Both the position numbers and the translations under genes were made by a program. This document shows positions 22,600 to 42,535 of a DNA stretch of 64,000 bases, one piece after another. The stretch is taken from contig CALQZS010000001.1 in the NCBI GenBank assembly GCA_943349945.1, positions 130,803-194,802 on the forward strand, written 5' to 3'. This DNA comes from Candidatus Nomurabacteria bacterium (GTDB lineage: Bacteria > Patescibacteriota > Minisyncoccia > Phycocordibacterales > SBAW01). The notes beneath the pieces are model-generated. The model was not told the origin of the DNA. It made no database searches and was given only the letters and a program-made list of their open reading frames with translations. Within the stretch, counting starts at the first letter, position 1. Every line of letters begins with the position of its first letter.

Positions 22600-22627
22600 G
22601 TAGGTAATTATATACCCATAACCGTTG

Positions 22628-22714
22628 CGGAGAGAGCGAGATTCGAACTCGCGGGCCCAATTAAGGGCCGACAGTTTAGTAAACTGTTGATTTAAACCAC
22701 TCATCCATCTCTCC
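22628..22714 (-). tRNA. type II (long variable arm) tRNA, Ser-like, anticodon apparently ACU
   Basis: Acceptor GGAGAGA/TCTCTCC, T-arm GCGAG-TTCGAAT-CTCGC, variable arm GGCCC-TTAATT-GGGCC, and anticodon stem ACAGT/ACTGT with loop TTACTAA. Confidence 0.7.
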
Positions 22715-36378: not shown

Positions 36379-36531
36379 CAAGAAGAAAGGGATTTCCCCT
36401 TACAGGGGCAGTACAGGTCTCGTATCGCACTTCATAAACTTTATGCGATATACTCGACCTTTTCAATCCCTGCACATACAGTGCATAGGCACTGTATTCG
36501 CGCCAATACTCGCTATGCTCGTTCTATTGTG

Positions 36532-36603
36532 TGGGCGCGGCAGGGATTGAACCTGCGACCAGTCGTGTATAAGACGACCGCTCTACCACTGAGCTACGCG
36601 CCC
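36532..36603 (-). tRNA. tRNA-Ile (UAU)
   Basis: Acceptor GGGCGCG/CGCGCCC, D-arm GCTCAGTGGTAGAGC, anticodon stem GTCGT/ACGAC with loop CTTATAC, and T-arm GCAGG-TTCAATC-CCTGC. Confidence 0.75.
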
Positions 36604-40777: not shown

Positions 40778-41239
40778 GTGAGCCTTATAGAAAGTAAAAA
40801 AGCCCGGCTAAACTATGACATCCTCGAGGAATTTGAGGCGGGGTTGGAATTGGTGGGTAGCGAGGTAAAGAGTGTCCGCGCCGGCCACGGCAAGCTCGAC
40901 GGTGCACATATTATTGTGCGCCCCACCGCGCGCGCAGGGGGCCTAGAGGCATACGTGGTGGGCATGTCTGTGCCTCCATACCAAGCCACCAACACCCCCG
41001 CCGACTACGAACCCGAGCGCACACGCAAACTCCTGCTGACTAAAAAAGAATTGCAAACGTTGGCCGGGTTTGAAAAGCAGAGCGGCTTGACAATAGTGCC
41101 ACTTTCGGTGTATAATAAAGGGAGAGTACTGAAGCTGCGTTTGGCGGTAGCCCGCGGCCGTAAGAAATACGACAAGCGCGCCGTCTTAAAGGAAAGAGAC
41201 ACCAAGCGCGACATACAAAGGCTAAAACGACAATTATGA
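40778..41239 (+). CDS. smpB: SsrA-binding protein SmpB
   Basis: 153 aa, typical SmpB. Confidence 0.9.
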   Translation: MSLIESKKARLNYDILEEFEAGLELVGSEVKSVRAGHGKLDGAHIIVRPTARAGGLEAYVVGMSVPPYQATNTPADYEPERTRKLLLTKKELQTLAGFEKQSGLTIVPLSVYNKGRVLKLRLAVARGRKKYDKRAVLKERDTKRDIQRLKRQL

Positions 41240-41286
41240 AATTTGTCGTTCGCCCGACAAATAGCTATGCTATTTGTTTAGGGACT
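41220..41286 (+). repeat. direct repeat copy 1 (includes last 7 codons of smpB) flanking GIY-YIG cassette
   Basis: ggctaaaacgacaattatgaaatttgtcgttcgcccgacaaatagctatgctatttgtttaggg. The second copy is at 41591-41656. Both contain the hairpins atttgtcg/cgacaaat and acaaat/atttgt. Confidence 0.5.
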
Positions 41287-41325
41287 TTGAAAAAAGAATA
41301 AACAGACCTGGCCGTCGCCTAAAAT

Positions 41326-41586
41326 ATGTCTTGGACTGTATATATCCTATATAGCTTAAAAGATAAGAGGTTGTATGTAGGCTGTACTTCTGATCTTGAG
41401 AAAAGGATTGGGAGGCACAGCAAAGGATATGTATTAGCCACTTCTCATCGAAGACCTTTGGTTTTGATTCATTCAGAATTATTCAAACAAAAAGGAGAAG
41501 CTTTTCAACGAGAGAGATTTTTGAAAAGCCTTTGGGGAGCACGAGAAAAGAAAAAGATTCTAAAAAAGTACTTAGAATCAGAATGA
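41326..41586 (+). CDS. GIY-YIG nuclease family protein (small, homing-endonuclease-like)
   Basis: YILYSLKDKRLYVGCTSDLEKRIGRH GIY-YIG motif, in an AT-rich insert. Confidence 0.8.
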   Translation: MSWTVYILYSLKDKRLYVGCTSDLEKRIGRHSKGYVLATSHRRPLVLIHSELFKQKGEAFQRERFLKSLWGAREKKKILKKYLESE

Positions 41587-41590
41587 ATTG

Positions 41591-41656
41591 GGCTAAAACG
41601 ATTACCATGCAATCGTTCGCCCGAACAAATCTTGGCACAAGATTTGTTTTAGGGGG
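41591..41656 (+). repeat. direct repeat copy 2 (duplicated smpB 3' end remnant) abutting ssrA
   Basis: ggctaaaacgattaccatgcaatcgttcgcccgaacaaatcttggcacaagatttgttttaggggg. Confidence 0.5.
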
Positions 41657-42018
41657 ATGCCAGGCCTAGACAATGAAGACGCCTGTTGAATGCGCGCAGT
41701 AGAAGTCTGGACCTTCTTAAAAATCCGGAAACAATAACTGCAAAAAACAGTGTTTCGCCGTATTTCGCGGCGAACGACTTCCAGTTCGCGTTCGCGCGAG
41801 CGTAAGTCGCATCTACCCTTCCTCTCTCTTGCGGGTTGGGATAGGTGTTATATAGCAAGAGTATAGTTGCAAGAGCCGCTCTGACTTGCATCCGAACATA
41901 AGAGCTGCAGGAAGTTATGATTTCGTTTGCTTTGCCCATAACAGCCTAAAGAAACAACAAGCGAACTACACTACGTAGAAGCTTCAGCAGCACTTCATTG
42001 CACGGCGGTTCAATTCCG
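41653..42018 (+). ncRNA. ssrA: tmRNA (ssrA)
   Basis: 5' GGGGAUG pairs with 3' CAUCUCC-A, including a G3:U wobble. T-arm GGCGG-UUCAAUU-CCGCC. The tag ORF GCG GCG AAC GAC UUC CAG UUC GCG UUC GCG CGA GCG UAA encodes (A)ANDFQFAFARA. A terminator follows. Confidence 0.8.
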
Positions 42019-42319
42019 CCCATCTCCACATAAAAATAAAACGCGCCCATAGTTGGGTGCTTTTTATTTTCCCTGTCACCTCTGCCCCACTCGGCGAGTT
42101 GTCATAAGTGTCTAGCAATAAAACAAACACACCATGGAACACTTGAGTTAAGCCGAGGAGGCTGCCACCCCAAGGGGACGCGGCCTCCTCGGCGCACATG
42201 GTGCGTTTTGCACCCCTGTTTTTTGCATATGCACACAGATGGTGGTATGTTCAAAAAACGTACAGCGTTTGTTTGTTACGTACTGCACGTCCTAACTCAA
42301 GACTATTTGGGGAAAGCCG

Positions 42320-42496
42320 TTGAAAATCATACTAGCAAAGGGTGTAGCGGCAGGTATTGCCCTGCTACTCATACCCACAAGTACATCCAAAGCTGGCCAA
42401 GTGTGGCCAAGCCAAACACCCCTGATCCTTGCAGGCGGGGTGCTGTTGATCTTTCTATTGACGATATTACTAGGCCACCGGCGCAACAAGCGCTAG
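42320..42496 (+). CDS. possible small membrane peptide (58 aa, TTG start)
   Basis: RBS gggaaag, then (M)KIILAKGVAAGIALLLIPTSTSKAGQVWPSQTPLILAGGVLLIFLLTILLGHRRNKR, with a terminator immediately after the stop. Not in the ORF track. Confidence 0.3.
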   Translation: MKIILAKGVAAGIALLLIPTSTSKAGQVWPSQTPLILAGGVLLIFLLTILLGHRRNKR

Positions 42497-42502
42497 CGAC
42501 CA

Positions 42503-42535
42503 ATCCCCCTACCGCTGCAGTAGGGGGATTTTTTA
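42503..42535 (+). terminator. rho-independent terminator
   Basis: atccccctaccgctgcagtagggggat followed by TTTTTT. Confidence 0.55.

What the first reader, a model, noticed from the sequence alone, without database searches (positions are those of the whole stretch)
41220..41656. GIY-YIG nuclease cassette inserted between smpB and ssrA with duplication of the smpB 3' end
The last 11 nt of smpB plus downstream sequence (ggctaaaacga...ttcgcccga.caaat...atttgtttaggg) occur twice: once at the true smpB end (41220-41286) and again 370 bp later, directly abutting the tmRNA 5' end (41591-41656). Between the copies is an AT-rich 86-aa GIY-YIG protein gene. This is the signature of a homing-endonuclease-type mobile insertion that split the normally adjacent smpB-ssrA pair. 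Each repeat also carries alternative hairpins (atttgtcg/cgacaaat and acaaat/atttgt).
Basis: seen in the sequence. Interest (0 to 1): 0.55.

Follow-up and report, generated by a model that had tools for sequence, protein, structure and literature searches.

The report
Nuclease gene cassette with double-hairpin repeats
A small nuclease gene and a 64-base double-hairpin DNA element lie between smpB and the tmRNA gene in this Patescibacteria genome but are missing from its closest relatives; the same gene-plus-element pair sits at this spot in over 80 other Patescibacteria, which points to a site-bound selfish element and suggests a DNA substrate for a nuclease family of unknown function.

Summary
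smpB (40778-41239), an 86-aa GIY-YIG ORF (41326-41586) and tmRNA (from 41653) lie in that order. A 64-nt sequence occurs twice (41220-41283 and 41591-41654).

The empty-site test is positive: the nearest relatives (SmpB 87-99% identical) have smpB, a 39-56 nt spacer (143 nt in one contig pair), then tmRNA, with no GIY gene and no repeat.

The repeat is not a duplicated smpB end. The native smpB tail still lies after copy 1 (41284-41301). So copy 1 is an element inserted five codons before the old stop.

The repeat is a conserved double-palindrome motif: GGCTAAAnC-hairpin-TCGCCCGAAC-hairpin-GTTTTAGGG. It follows this GIY-YIG subfamily in all 82 loci with readable downstream sequence, always in the order smpB-GIY-motif-tmRNA. 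It is absent from all 87 GIY-less loci.

The stems are almost purely Watson-Crick (1193 pairs, one G·T), so the constraint is on DNA. Hairpin tips change between strains whose GIY genes are 99.6% identical. Extra copies lie at the smpB 3' end and inside tmRNA genes.

The protein is a single-domain UPF0213/SLX1-like nuclease, not I-TevI-like. Best reading: a site-bound selfish cassette whose nuclease acts on its own hairpin element. The cassette and its gain are well supported; the nuclease-motif link is inferred.

The parts
40778..41239 (+). smpB. Its last 20 nt (41220-41239, codons LKRQL plus stop, from the second base of the Arg codon onward) come from motif copy 1, so the gene has a chimeric 3' end.
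   Evidence: PF01668 E 7.5e-43. Relatives end in ...DIQRTLKNK*, the window in ...DIQRLKRQL*.
41087..41116 (+). Perfect sigma-70-type promoter (TTGACA-N18-TATAAT) embedded in smpB codons. It is probably the ssrA promoter, which would place the cassette in the pre-tmRNA leader.
   Evidence: 12/12 consensus match. The 12/12 match is kept in 110 of 172 smpB loci and at least 10/12 in 167. Its function is inferred.
41220..41283 (+). Motif copy 1: a solo double-palindrome element inserted into smpB five codons before the native stop.
   Evidence: CM R1 58.5 bits. Absent at this site in L001-L009. Folds as two hairpins.
41284..41301 (+). Displaced native smpB tail (ACTTTGAAAAAAGAATAA = TLKKE*), now out of frame and untranslated.
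   Evidence: 16 of 18 bases match the tail of L001/L002. The same tail follows smpB-end motif copies in L053 and L037.
41302..41325 (+). Left edge of the GIY cassette. It ends in GCCTAAAAT (41317-41325), a partial copy of the motif's 5' box, directly before the ATG.
   Evidence: About 8 of 18 bases differ from the L001 spacer by eye, against 7% background divergence. It resembles the pre-ATG segment of other GIY loci..TCGCCTAAAGC atg. 21 of 82 loci have this box within 3 nt of the start.
41326..41586 (+). 86-aa stand-alone GIY-YIG nuclease gene (UPF0213/SLX1-like).
   Evidence: PF01541 E 4.1e-15. PDB profile hits 1YWL and 1ZG2, E about 1e-9. AlphaFold pLDDT 96.5. Foldseek finds UPF0213, then SLX1 and HIGLE, with I-TevI weaker. 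GC 35% against 54% for smpB.
41591..41654 (+). Motif copy 2: the cassette's own double-palindrome element. Its last two G are the first two bases of tmRNA.
   Evidence: CM R1 64.9 bits. The same position in all 82 GIY loci with readable downstream sequence.
41653..42031 (+). tmRNA gene (tag AKNSVSPYFAANDFQFAFARA).
   Evidence: ARAGORN. Rfam RF00023 101.9 bits, full length. 98% identical to L001/L002.
42043..42070 (+). Terminator-like hairpin plus T-run after tmRNA, the likely end of the transcription unit.
   Evidence: Pattern scan; inverted repeat I3.

Best explanation
The locus holds a site-bound selfish cassette that is widespread in Patescibacteria. It has two components. The first is an 83-117 aa single-domain GIY-YIG nuclease of the UPF0213/SLX1-like branch. 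The second is one or more copies of a ~60-70 bp element made of two perfect DNA hairpins held between three conserved boxes (GGCTAAA / TCGCCCGA / TTTAGGG).

The cassette always sits between smpB and the first base of tmRNA. That is downstream of a promoter embedded in smpB, so it is probably transcribed as part of the pre-tmRNA leader. tmRNA would still be released by the usual 5' processing.

Shown:
- This genome's lineage gained the cassette after splitting from its nearest sampled relatives.
- The 'repeat' is two copies of the element. One is the cassette's own copy abutting tmRNA. The other is a solo copy inside smpB's last codons, which rewrote the SmpB C-terminus.
- The element is constrained as DNA.
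- It also occurs in tandem, at the smpB end and inside tmRNA genes.
- Its hairpin tips turn over between near-identical strains.

Inferred:
- The nuclease recognises the folded element (hairpins on single-stranded DNA, or an extruded cruciform) by structure plus the conserved boxes, as SLX1-type enzymes recognise branched DNA.
- Its cuts, followed by repair, drive local copying, tip flipping or conversion, and occasional transfer of the whole cassette into empty smpB-ssrA junctions.
For: (1) Gain. Relatives L001-L009 lack both gene and motif. Homology with L001/L002 stops at 41220 and resumes at 41653. The window is nested among GIY-less tips on the SmpB tree. Its smpB-minus-GIY GC gap is the largest of 78 loci, 54% against 35%.

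(2) Fixed site. 79 of the 80 loci retrieved with the GIY gene as query show smpB directly upstream, and tmRNA is downstream wherever it is readable.

(3) Strict co-occurrence. The motif is found in all GIY loci with downstream sequence (79 of 79, plus the window, L090 and L172). It is found in none of the 9 + 78 GIY-less loci.

(4) DNA-level palindromes. There are 1193 Watson-Crick pairs against 13 mismatches, with only one G·T. Predicted pairs and G·U counts are about the same on the two strands, and mean fold energies are close (-24.0 against -23.7 kcal/mol). 17 of 22 pairs show compensatory changes.

(5) Mobility and turnover. Copies lie in tandem, at the smpB end (8 other loci) and inside full-length tmRNA genes (8 loci). 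L081 and L082 have 99.6% identical GIY genes and identical flanks, yet differ by a flipped loop and a converted hairpin top. The window's two copies share genome-specific stem bases but have different tips.

(6) Protein. The nearest solved relatives are UPF0213 (E 2.5e-9) and SLX1/HIGLE, which are branched-DNA nucleases (TM 0.6-0.66). I-TevI is more distant. Y6, Y17 and R27 are invariant and H31 nearly so.

(7) No other mobility gene lies within +/-5 kb. No relative was found in phage contigs.

(8) Footprint-like spacers in L148, L152 and L101 suggest losses.
Against: - Nothing shows directly that the nuclease touches the motif. The link is co-occurrence plus fold analogy.
- The motif is not dispersed. 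Only the two local copies hit in 64 kb, which is unlike ordinary MITE or REP families.
- By my tally of the hits, nearly all copies lie on the transcribed strand (only a few on the other strand). This could reflect an RNA-level role or a strand-specific mechanism.
- GIY presence is strongly clustered on the SmpB tree (10 changes against about 44 at random). GIY identity rises with SmpB identity among close pairs. The cassette is therefore mostly inherited vertically.
- All 82 ORFs are intact. That fits a useful gene as well as a selfish one, though the search favoured intact copies.
- No donor-derived tract is seen in the flanks, and no close donor is in the databases (best 76% protein identity).
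- Any target-site duplication is ambiguous (GG).
Confidence: 0.55

Rival explanations
1. Classical free-standing homing endonuclease. The GIY-YIG enzyme cuts a specific sequence at the empty smpB-ssrA junction (for example the conserved tmRNA 5' end), and the gene is copied in by recombinational repair. The double-hairpin motif is a passive passenger. It might be a 3' stabiliser or insulator for the nuclease mRNA, which would end in these hairpins after the tmRNA 5' end is cut.
For: - Presence/absence polymorphism at one fixed site between two conserved genes.
- A GC anomaly.
- GIY-YIG catalytic residues are conserved.
- The cassette lies in the pre-tmRNA leader behind a conserved promoter.
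- Most copies lie on the transcribed strand.
Against: - The protein has no DNA-binding domain, only 83-117 aa in one fold. It is nearer to UPF0213 and SLX1 than to I-TevI.
- No co-conversion tract is seen: 2 mismatches in the last 73 nt of smpB and none in the first 55 nt of tmRNA.
- A passive RNA hairpin should tolerate G·U pairs, yet only 1 of 1193 pairs is G·T.
- This model does not explain solo copies inside smpB and tmRNA, one of them inverted, or the tip turnover between near-identical strains.
Confidence: 0.22
2. A host-beneficial accessory of the trans-translation locus. The small nuclease and the leader hairpins act at the RNA level, for example in pre-tmRNA processing or in cutting mRNA on stalled ribosomes. 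Their conserved position reflects functional coupling with SmpB and tmRNA rather than selfish spread.
For: - The gene order smpB-GIY-tmRNA is invariant in 79 of 80 loci across many Patescibacteria lineages.
- All ORFs are intact and the sequence is well conserved, more so than SmpB (61% against 53% mean pairwise identity).
- GIY GC tracks host GC (r = 0.83).
- Presence is phylogenetically clustered.
- Co-transcription from the embedded promoter is likely.
Against: - Only 2 of the 80 closest SmpB relatives carry it, and none of the four nearest lineages do. It is dispensable.
- The stems show a DNA signature, not an RNA one.
- The motif also inserts into the smpB coding sequence and into tmRNA itself, once inverted.
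- From general knowledge, GIY-YIG enzymes are DNA nucleases.
- No match to a known RNA family.
Confidence: 0.12
3. A homing-type insertion duplicated the 3' end of smpB plus the downstream spacer, so the two repeats are a target duplication. Alternatively they are just two unrelated terminator hairpins.
For: Two similar 64-nt sequences bracket the ORF, and the first overlaps the smpB stop.
Against: - Relatives' smpB ends and spacers contain nothing like the repeat.
- The native smpB tail survives downstream of copy 1.
- The same motif follows the GIY gene in 82 other or independent loci.
- The copies are far too different (about 70% identical) for a duplication younger than the 7% split from L001.
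- Neither hairpin passes a terminator scan.
Confidence: 0.03

Closest known systems
Free-standing and intron-borne GIY-YIG homing endonucleases (I-TevI; T4 Seg proteins)
   Same: GIY-YIG catalytic core with conserved Tyr, Tyr, Arg and His. The gene lies between conserved genes and is present or absent among close relatives at one fixed site. Its base composition is foreign.
   Different: No DNA-binding domain or linker. Sequence and fold are closer to UPF0213 and SLX1. No co-conversion tract is seen. The gene is always accompanied by a specific double-hairpin DNA element.
UPF0213 / COG2827 stand-alone GIY-YIG proteins (EF2693 1YWL, BH0048 1ZG2, E. coli YhbQ)
   Same: Best sequence and fold match, the same ~90-aa single-domain architecture.
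   Different: No substrate or genomic partner is described for that family in the literature searched. Here the subfamily has a fixed genomic address and a fixed DNA companion.
SLX1 / HIGLE structure-specific GIY-YIG nucleases
   Same: Fold match with TM 0.6-0.66 and rmsd about 2 A for the best chains. These enzymes cut branched or cruciform DNA by shape, which would suit a double palindrome.
   Different: No RING/PHD domain and no SLX4-like partner. They are eukaryotic repair enzymes, not mobile elements. Any activity of the window's protein is untested.
Hairpin-recognising single-strand DNA systems: REP/BIME with RAYT, IS200/IS605 ends, integron attC cassettes
   Same: Conserved single-stranded boxes flank variable but perfectly paired stems. 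There is a strand bias and a layout of ORF plus hairpin site at its 3' end. Copies occur in tandem.
   Different: The enzyme is a GIY-YIG nuclease, not a HUH (Y1) transposase or a tyrosine integrase. Copies stay at one locus rather than dispersing. There is no GTAG head and no integron platform.
Mitochondrial double-hairpin elements and repetitive hairpin elements (Allomyces, sponges, yeast GC clusters)
   Same: Short mobile two-hairpin elements that insert into intergenic DNA, gene ends and variable regions of structural RNA genes, and are tolerated there (PMC2800124, citing Paquin et al. 2000).
   Different: Those are organellar and dispersed. No dedicated nuclease was mentioned in the source read (PMC2800124). 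No sequence relationship was tested.
Non-intron insertion sequences with GIY-YIG ORFs in CPR rRNA genes (PMC11270868)
   Same: The same bacterial group. GIY-YIG ORFs lie in insertions that are not introns, within or beside structural RNA genes.
   Different: A different target (rRNA rather than smpB-ssrA). No hairpin motif was mentioned in the passages read. Whether the proteins or flanks are related was not tested.

Membership tests
GIY-YIG nuclease superfamily (PF01541) | Sequence match to the catalytic domain above the curated threshold | tested here: met
   56.3 bits against a cutoff of 22.6, E 4.1e-15, residues 3-72.
GIY-YIG nuclease superfamily (PF01541) | Conserved catalytic Tyr (GIY), Tyr (YIG) and Arg, plus a three-stranded sheet with helices | tested here: met
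   Y6, Y17, G19 and R27 are invariant and H31 is at least 90% conserved in 32 sequences. The model has strands 3-10, 16-21 and 45-53 and three helices, pLDDT 96.5.
I-TevI-type homing endonucleases | C-terminal DNA-binding domain joined by a linker | tested here: not met
   The 86-aa protein is entirely one GIY-YIG fold. The TIGR01453 match covers only residues 5-36, at 21 bits against a cutoff of 56.
I-TevI-type homing endonucleases | Presence/absence polymorphism at a fixed site in otherwise collinear relatives | tested here: met
I-TevI-type homing endonucleases | Co-conversion of flanking markers from the donor | tested here: not met
   The flanks next to the insert are as similar to L002 as the rest, or more so. 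A conspecific donor would leave no trace, so this is weak evidence.
I-TevI-type homing endonucleases | Sequence-specific cleavage of the empty allele | not testable with these tools
   Needs enzyme assays.
UPF0213 / COG2827 | Closest sequence and structure relatives; ~90-aa single domain | tested here: met
   1YWL E 2.5e-9 and 1ZG2 E 4.6e-9. 1ZG2 is the top Foldseek hit.
SLX1-type structure-specific nucleases | GIY-YIG domain plus a RING/PHD zinc finger, acting with SLX4 | tested here: not met
   Only the nuclease domain aligns (72-74 columns of chains of 249-298 residues). No further domain is present.
MITE (miniature inverted-repeat transposable element) | Terminal inverted repeats | tested here: met
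   CTAAAAC...GTTTTAG ends are 87% complementary across 62 distinct copies. They are invariant, so covariation cannot test them.
MITE (miniature inverted-repeat transposable element) | Target-site duplication | tested here: inconclusive
   The insert boundaries are ambiguous by GG. Tandem units share one GG. The L049 site cannot be aligned upstream.
MITE (miniature inverted-repeat transposable element) | Many dispersed copies and a cognate transposase | tested here: not met
   Only the two local copies hit in 64 kb. There is no transposase within +/-5 kb. Copies in other genomes also stay at the locus.
REP/BIME with RAYT | HUH (Y1) transposase partner and a GTAG/CTAC-headed palindrome in high copy number | tested here: not met
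   The partner is a GIY-YIG protein. The boxes are GGCTAAA / TCGCCCGA / TTTAGGG. Copy number is low.
Intrinsic terminators | G+C-rich stem followed by a T-run | tested here: not met
   Neither motif hairpin is listed by the scan. The real terminator-like site is at 42043.
Structured RNA family (Rfam) | Match to a curated model; G·U tolerance and strand asymmetry in the stems | tested here: not met
   No family other than tmRNA reaches its gathering score. There is 1 G·T in 1193 pairs, and pair and G·U counts are the same on both strands.

The most novel reading that the evidence does not exclude
UPF0213-type GIY-YIG proteins of Patescibacteria are hairpin- or cruciform-specific DNA nucleases that propagate and continually rewrite their own double-hairpin element. 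This would be a nuclease-driven mobile element with no transposase, integrase or intron. It would live in the pre-tmRNA leader, seed copies into smpB and tmRNA, and diversify its hairpin tips by flipping and conversion.
Probability: 0.3. Interest if true: 0.8.

Novelty: new variant of a known kind. Interest (0 to 1): 0.62.

Why it matters
- It gives a function-unknown nuclease family (UPF0213/YhbQ-like, with structures solved in 2005) a concrete candidate DNA substrate that can be tested with oligonucleotides.
- It shows that even very small Patescibacteria genomes carry a site-bound selfish cassette next to an essential RNA gene.
- It documents short hairpin insertions inside smpB and inside tmRNA genes. 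These lengthen the tmRNA gene to as much as 515 nt. ARAGORN missed seven of the eight such genes that Rfam finds, though it also missed about 20 other tmRNA genes in these loci.
- It reveals hairpin tips that change between near-identical strains. That points to an active DNA process which could be followed in long-read population data.
- A promoter embedded in smpB, noticed on the way, bears on how tmRNA is expressed in this group.

Tried and rejected
- Target duplication of the smpB end: rejected by the empty-site comparison.
- Genome-wide repeat family: the covariance model found only the two copies in 64 kb.
- Known RNA family: an Rfam E-value scan found only tmRNA plus chance hits such as HIV_GSL3.
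- Terminators: not flagged.
- Alternative folds (central hairpin, terminal closing stem): no covariation.
- Phage vector: all 41 pattern matches in viral contigs failed the model. Only two distant GIY relatives, at 35% and 52% identity over a partial match, were found there.
- Defence system: no PADLOC match.
- Neighbouring integrase or transposase: none; the neighbours are RecG, ATCase, DHODH, FtsH, YecM, IF3, L20 and a beta-CASP protein.
- Horizontal transfer tested by correlating SmpB and GIY pairwise identities: the correlation is weak (r 0.36-0.40), but the SmpB-tmRNA control is just as weak (0.34). The test has no power at these distances.
- Population polymorphism in the same organism: the two other assemblies are identical at the locus.
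- A second close filled/empty pair: the next best is L011/L130 at 85.5% SmpB identity, too far apart for junction mapping.
- The apparent similarity of copy 1 to the tRNA-Ser region was a coordinate artefact of the palindrome matching itself.
Full report
**What is at the locus**

The window reads smpB (40778-41239), an 86-aa ORF (41326-41586) and tmRNA (41653-42029/42031), all on the + strand. Pfam confirms SmpB (E 7.5e-43) and a GIY-YIG domain (E 4.1e-15). Rfam gives a full-length tmRNA match at 101.9 bits.

The ORF region has 36-38% GC against 52-61% around it. Neighbours within 5 kb are housekeeping genes: RecG, ATCase, DHODH, FtsH, YecM, IF3, L20 and a beta-CASP protein. There is no integrase or transposase. 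SmpB homologues are named Paceibacterota, Adlerbacteria or Patescibacteria by their sources.

**The repeat is real**

- The copies share exact blocks GGCTAAAACGA and TCGTTCGCCCGA.
- The local alignment score is 37, against 14.9 +/- 2.3 for shuffles.
- Each copy folds into two adjacent hairpins well below shuffled energies.

**Empty-site test**

I fetched contigs that encode the closest SmpB proteins (99, 90, 88 and 87% identical). All have smpB, then a spacer of 39-56 nt (143 nt in L008/L009, which carry an extra 104-nt insertion), then tmRNA. None has a GIY gene.

L001/L002 align to the window at 92-93% up to base 41220 and at 98% from 41653. Nothing aligns in between.

In these relatives smpB ends ...CAAAGAACTTTGAAAAATAAATAA. 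In the window, ACTTTGAAAAAAGAATAA is still present, but after copy 1 (41284-41301). Copy 1 is therefore a ~62-nt insertion inside smpB, five codons before the old stop. It changed the C-terminus from TLKNK to LKRQL.

The GIY gene with copy 2 replaces the 51-nt spacer. The repeat is not a duplicated smpB end.

Two independent assemblies from other samples are 99.9% identical across the region, so it is not an assembly artefact.

**The cassette elsewhere**

A search of one genome per species with an alignment of GIY homologues returned 80 loci, mainly from Parcubacteria/Paceibacteria-type lineages. In 79 of them smpB lies directly upstream of the GIY gene. Wherever it is readable, tmRNA lies directly downstream.

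Directly after the GIY ORF, abutting the first G of tmRNA, every locus has the same motif: GGCTAAAnC-hairpin 1-n'TCGCCCGAAC-hairpin 2-GTTTTAGGG. A covariance model built from 63 copies gave these results:

- It hits all 79 loci that have sequence downstream of the GIY gene, plus L090. L172 shows the motif by eye.
- It hits only the two copies in the 64-kb window (64.9 and 58.5 bits; next best 13).
- It hits nothing in the nine GIY-less contigs of the nearest relatives.

**How common it is near the window**

I also sampled by SmpB rather than by GIY, taking the 80 closest SmpB relatives in metagenome contigs (57-76% identity). Only two carry the GIY gene (L090, and L098, which is cut off). Only L090 has the motif. 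The other 78 have neither.

Gene and motif therefore co-occur strictly, and the pair is rare in the window's own clade. On an SmpB neighbour-joining tree the window is sister to L002, then L003, L005 and L009, all without the cassette. That means one gain, or at least four losses.

Across the whole tree, presence is clustered (10 changes against about 44 at random). The cassette is thus mostly inherited vertically, with occasional gains and losses. Some GIY-less spacers look like footprints, for example CCCCTAAAGT...TGTTTTAG|GGGG in L148.

The GIY gene's GC tracks the host's (r = 0.83) but is about 9 points lower. The window has the largest gap of 78 loci.

A correlation test of GIY against SmpB distances had no power, because the SmpB-tmRNA control was equally weak.

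**Nature of the motif**

- Seventeen of 22 predicted pairs show compensatory changes.
- The stems are essentially perfect Watson-Crick palindromes of about 9-10 bp with loops of mostly 3-4 nt. There are 1193 Watson-Crick pairs, 13 mismatches and only one G·T. Pair and G·U counts are about the same on both strands, and mean fold energies are close. That is the signature of a constraint on DNA hairpins rather than on an RNA.
Nor does a closing stem between the inverted ends CTAAAAC/GTTTTAG.
- Neither hairpin looks like a terminator. No Rfam family matches.

**Evidence that the motif moves and changes**

- Copies occur in tandem before tmRNA (for example L052, L053, L059).
- Copies occur at the smpB 3' end in eight other loci. 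In L053 and L037, as in the window, the copy sits just before the TLK codons.
- Copies lie inside tmRNA genes that still match the full Rfam model, in eight loci. L012 holds two copies, one of them inverted.
- L081 and L082 have GIY genes 99.6% identical and identical flanks. They differ only in the tips of one motif unit: one loop is flipped (TACT/AGTA), and the top of hairpin 2 is replaced by a copy of hairpin 1's top.
- Within single loci, copies typically share one hairpin or the stem bases and differ in the rest.

This explains the window. Its two copies share stem bases not seen in the other copies listed (AACGA...TCGTT; ACAAAT...ATTTGT) but have different tips. Both are absent from a relative only 7% diverged in DNA.

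**Cassette edges**

The GIY ORF is often bracketed by the motif's 5' box. G(C/G)CTAAA(A/G)(C/T) lies directly before the ATG in 21 of 82 loci (GCCTAAAAT in the window). The stop codon is the TAA of GGCTAA in 15 loci.

The insert boundaries of copy 1 are ambiguous by GG. That would fit a 2-bp target duplication but does not prove one. From memory, not tested here, I-TevI-type GIY-YIG enzymes leave 2-nt 3' overhangs.

**The protein**

- A profile search of solved structures finds the stand-alone UPF0213 proteins 1YWL and 1ZG2 (E about 1e-9). I-TevI (0.03) and SLX1 (0.07) are far behind.
- The AlphaFold model is confident (pLDDT 96.5) and is a single GIY-YIG fold.
- Foldseek ranks UPF0213 first. 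Next come SLX1 and the plant Holliday-junction resolvase HIGLE (TM 0.6-0.66), then I-TevI (E about 0.4).
- There is no DNA-binding domain.
- Y6, Y17 and R27 are invariant and H31 nearly so.
- All 82 ORFs are intact, at 83-117 aa.
- There is no defence-system match. No close relatives occur in phage contigs.
- The literature searched does not link GIY-YIG with tmRNA or smpB and says little on UPF0213.
- One paper reports GIY-YIG ORFs in non-intron insertions of CPR rRNA genes (PMC11270868).
- Mobile double-hairpin elements are known from mitochondria (PMC2800124).

**Expression context**

A perfect TTGACA-N18-TATAAT lies in smpB codons at 41087-41116. The 12/12 match is kept in 110 of 172 smpB loci. 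If this is the ssrA promoter, the cassette sits in the pre-tmRNA leader. It would be transcribed with tmRNA, which is then freed by 5' processing. This step is inferred.

**Verdict**

The best explanation is a site-bound selfish cassette made of a UPF0213/SLX1-like nuclease and its own double-hairpin DNA element. This lineage gained it, and a second copy of the element then entered smpB. That the nuclease acts on the folded element is an inference from strict co-occurrence, the DNA-level palindromes, the tip turnover and the fold relationship.

The rivals are classical homing with a passenger hairpin and a host-beneficial RNA-level role. Both remain possible and can be separated by simple enzyme assays and RNA end-mapping.

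Noticed in passing
window 41087-41116 (+), inside smpB: A perfect sigma-70 consensus promoter (TTGACA-N18-TATAAT) is written in the L-T...Y-N codons of smpB. The 12/12 match is kept in 110 of 172 smpB loci and at least 10/12 in 167, which suggests an ssrA promoter embedded in the coding sequence.
   Followed up: partly
L008:1833-1936 and L009 (same insert), compared with L007:1941-1979: Contigs encoding the identical SmpB protein differ by a 104-nt insertion in the smpB-ssrA spacer. The insert has inverted ends (GGTCAAACGAAGTC / GACTTGTTTTACC) and CTTCG on both sides. It is a different small mobile element at the same spot.
   Followed up: no
L092, L117, L131, L169 (smpB-tmRNA spacers of 430-500 nt): Other lineages carry unrelated 72-85 aa ORFs ending in (I/L)DKIF between smpB and tmRNA, so the spacer hosts several kinds of small genes.
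   Followed up: no
L027:2278-2535, L068:2286-2531 (upstream of smpB); L012:4057-4302, L026, L032, L036, L037, L072, L093, L100 (downstream of tmRNA): A second, distant GIY-YIG paralogue (34-49% identical) often flanks the same locus on the other side of smpB or of tmRNA. In L012 it has no double-hairpin motif beside it; the other loci were not inspected.
   Followed up: partly
window 42030-42532: The ~500 nt after the tmRNA terminator have no counterpart in L001/L002 and lack the Bax1-I gene found here in L004/L007. The tmRNA 3' flank is also variable.
   Followed up: no
window 22627-22714 (-) and 36531-36603 (-): ARAGORN calls a tRNA-Ser with the unusual anticodon ACT (next to a normal tRNA-Ser GCT) and a tRNA-Ile with anticodon TAT.
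   Followed up: no
L148:2939-2998, L152, L101 (GIY-less spacers): These spacers begin with the cassette's left box (CCCCTAAAGT) and end with its right end (TGTTTTAG) just before tmRNA. They look like deletion footprints of the cassette.
   Followed up: partly
L012:3404-3918, L013, L016, L046, L049, L077, L083, L088: tmRNA genes carrying one or two motif copies in the pseudoknot region still match the full Rfam model, but ARAGORN missed seven of the eight. ARAGORN also missed about 20 other tmRNA genes in these loci, so the link to the insertions is not established.
   Followed up: partly
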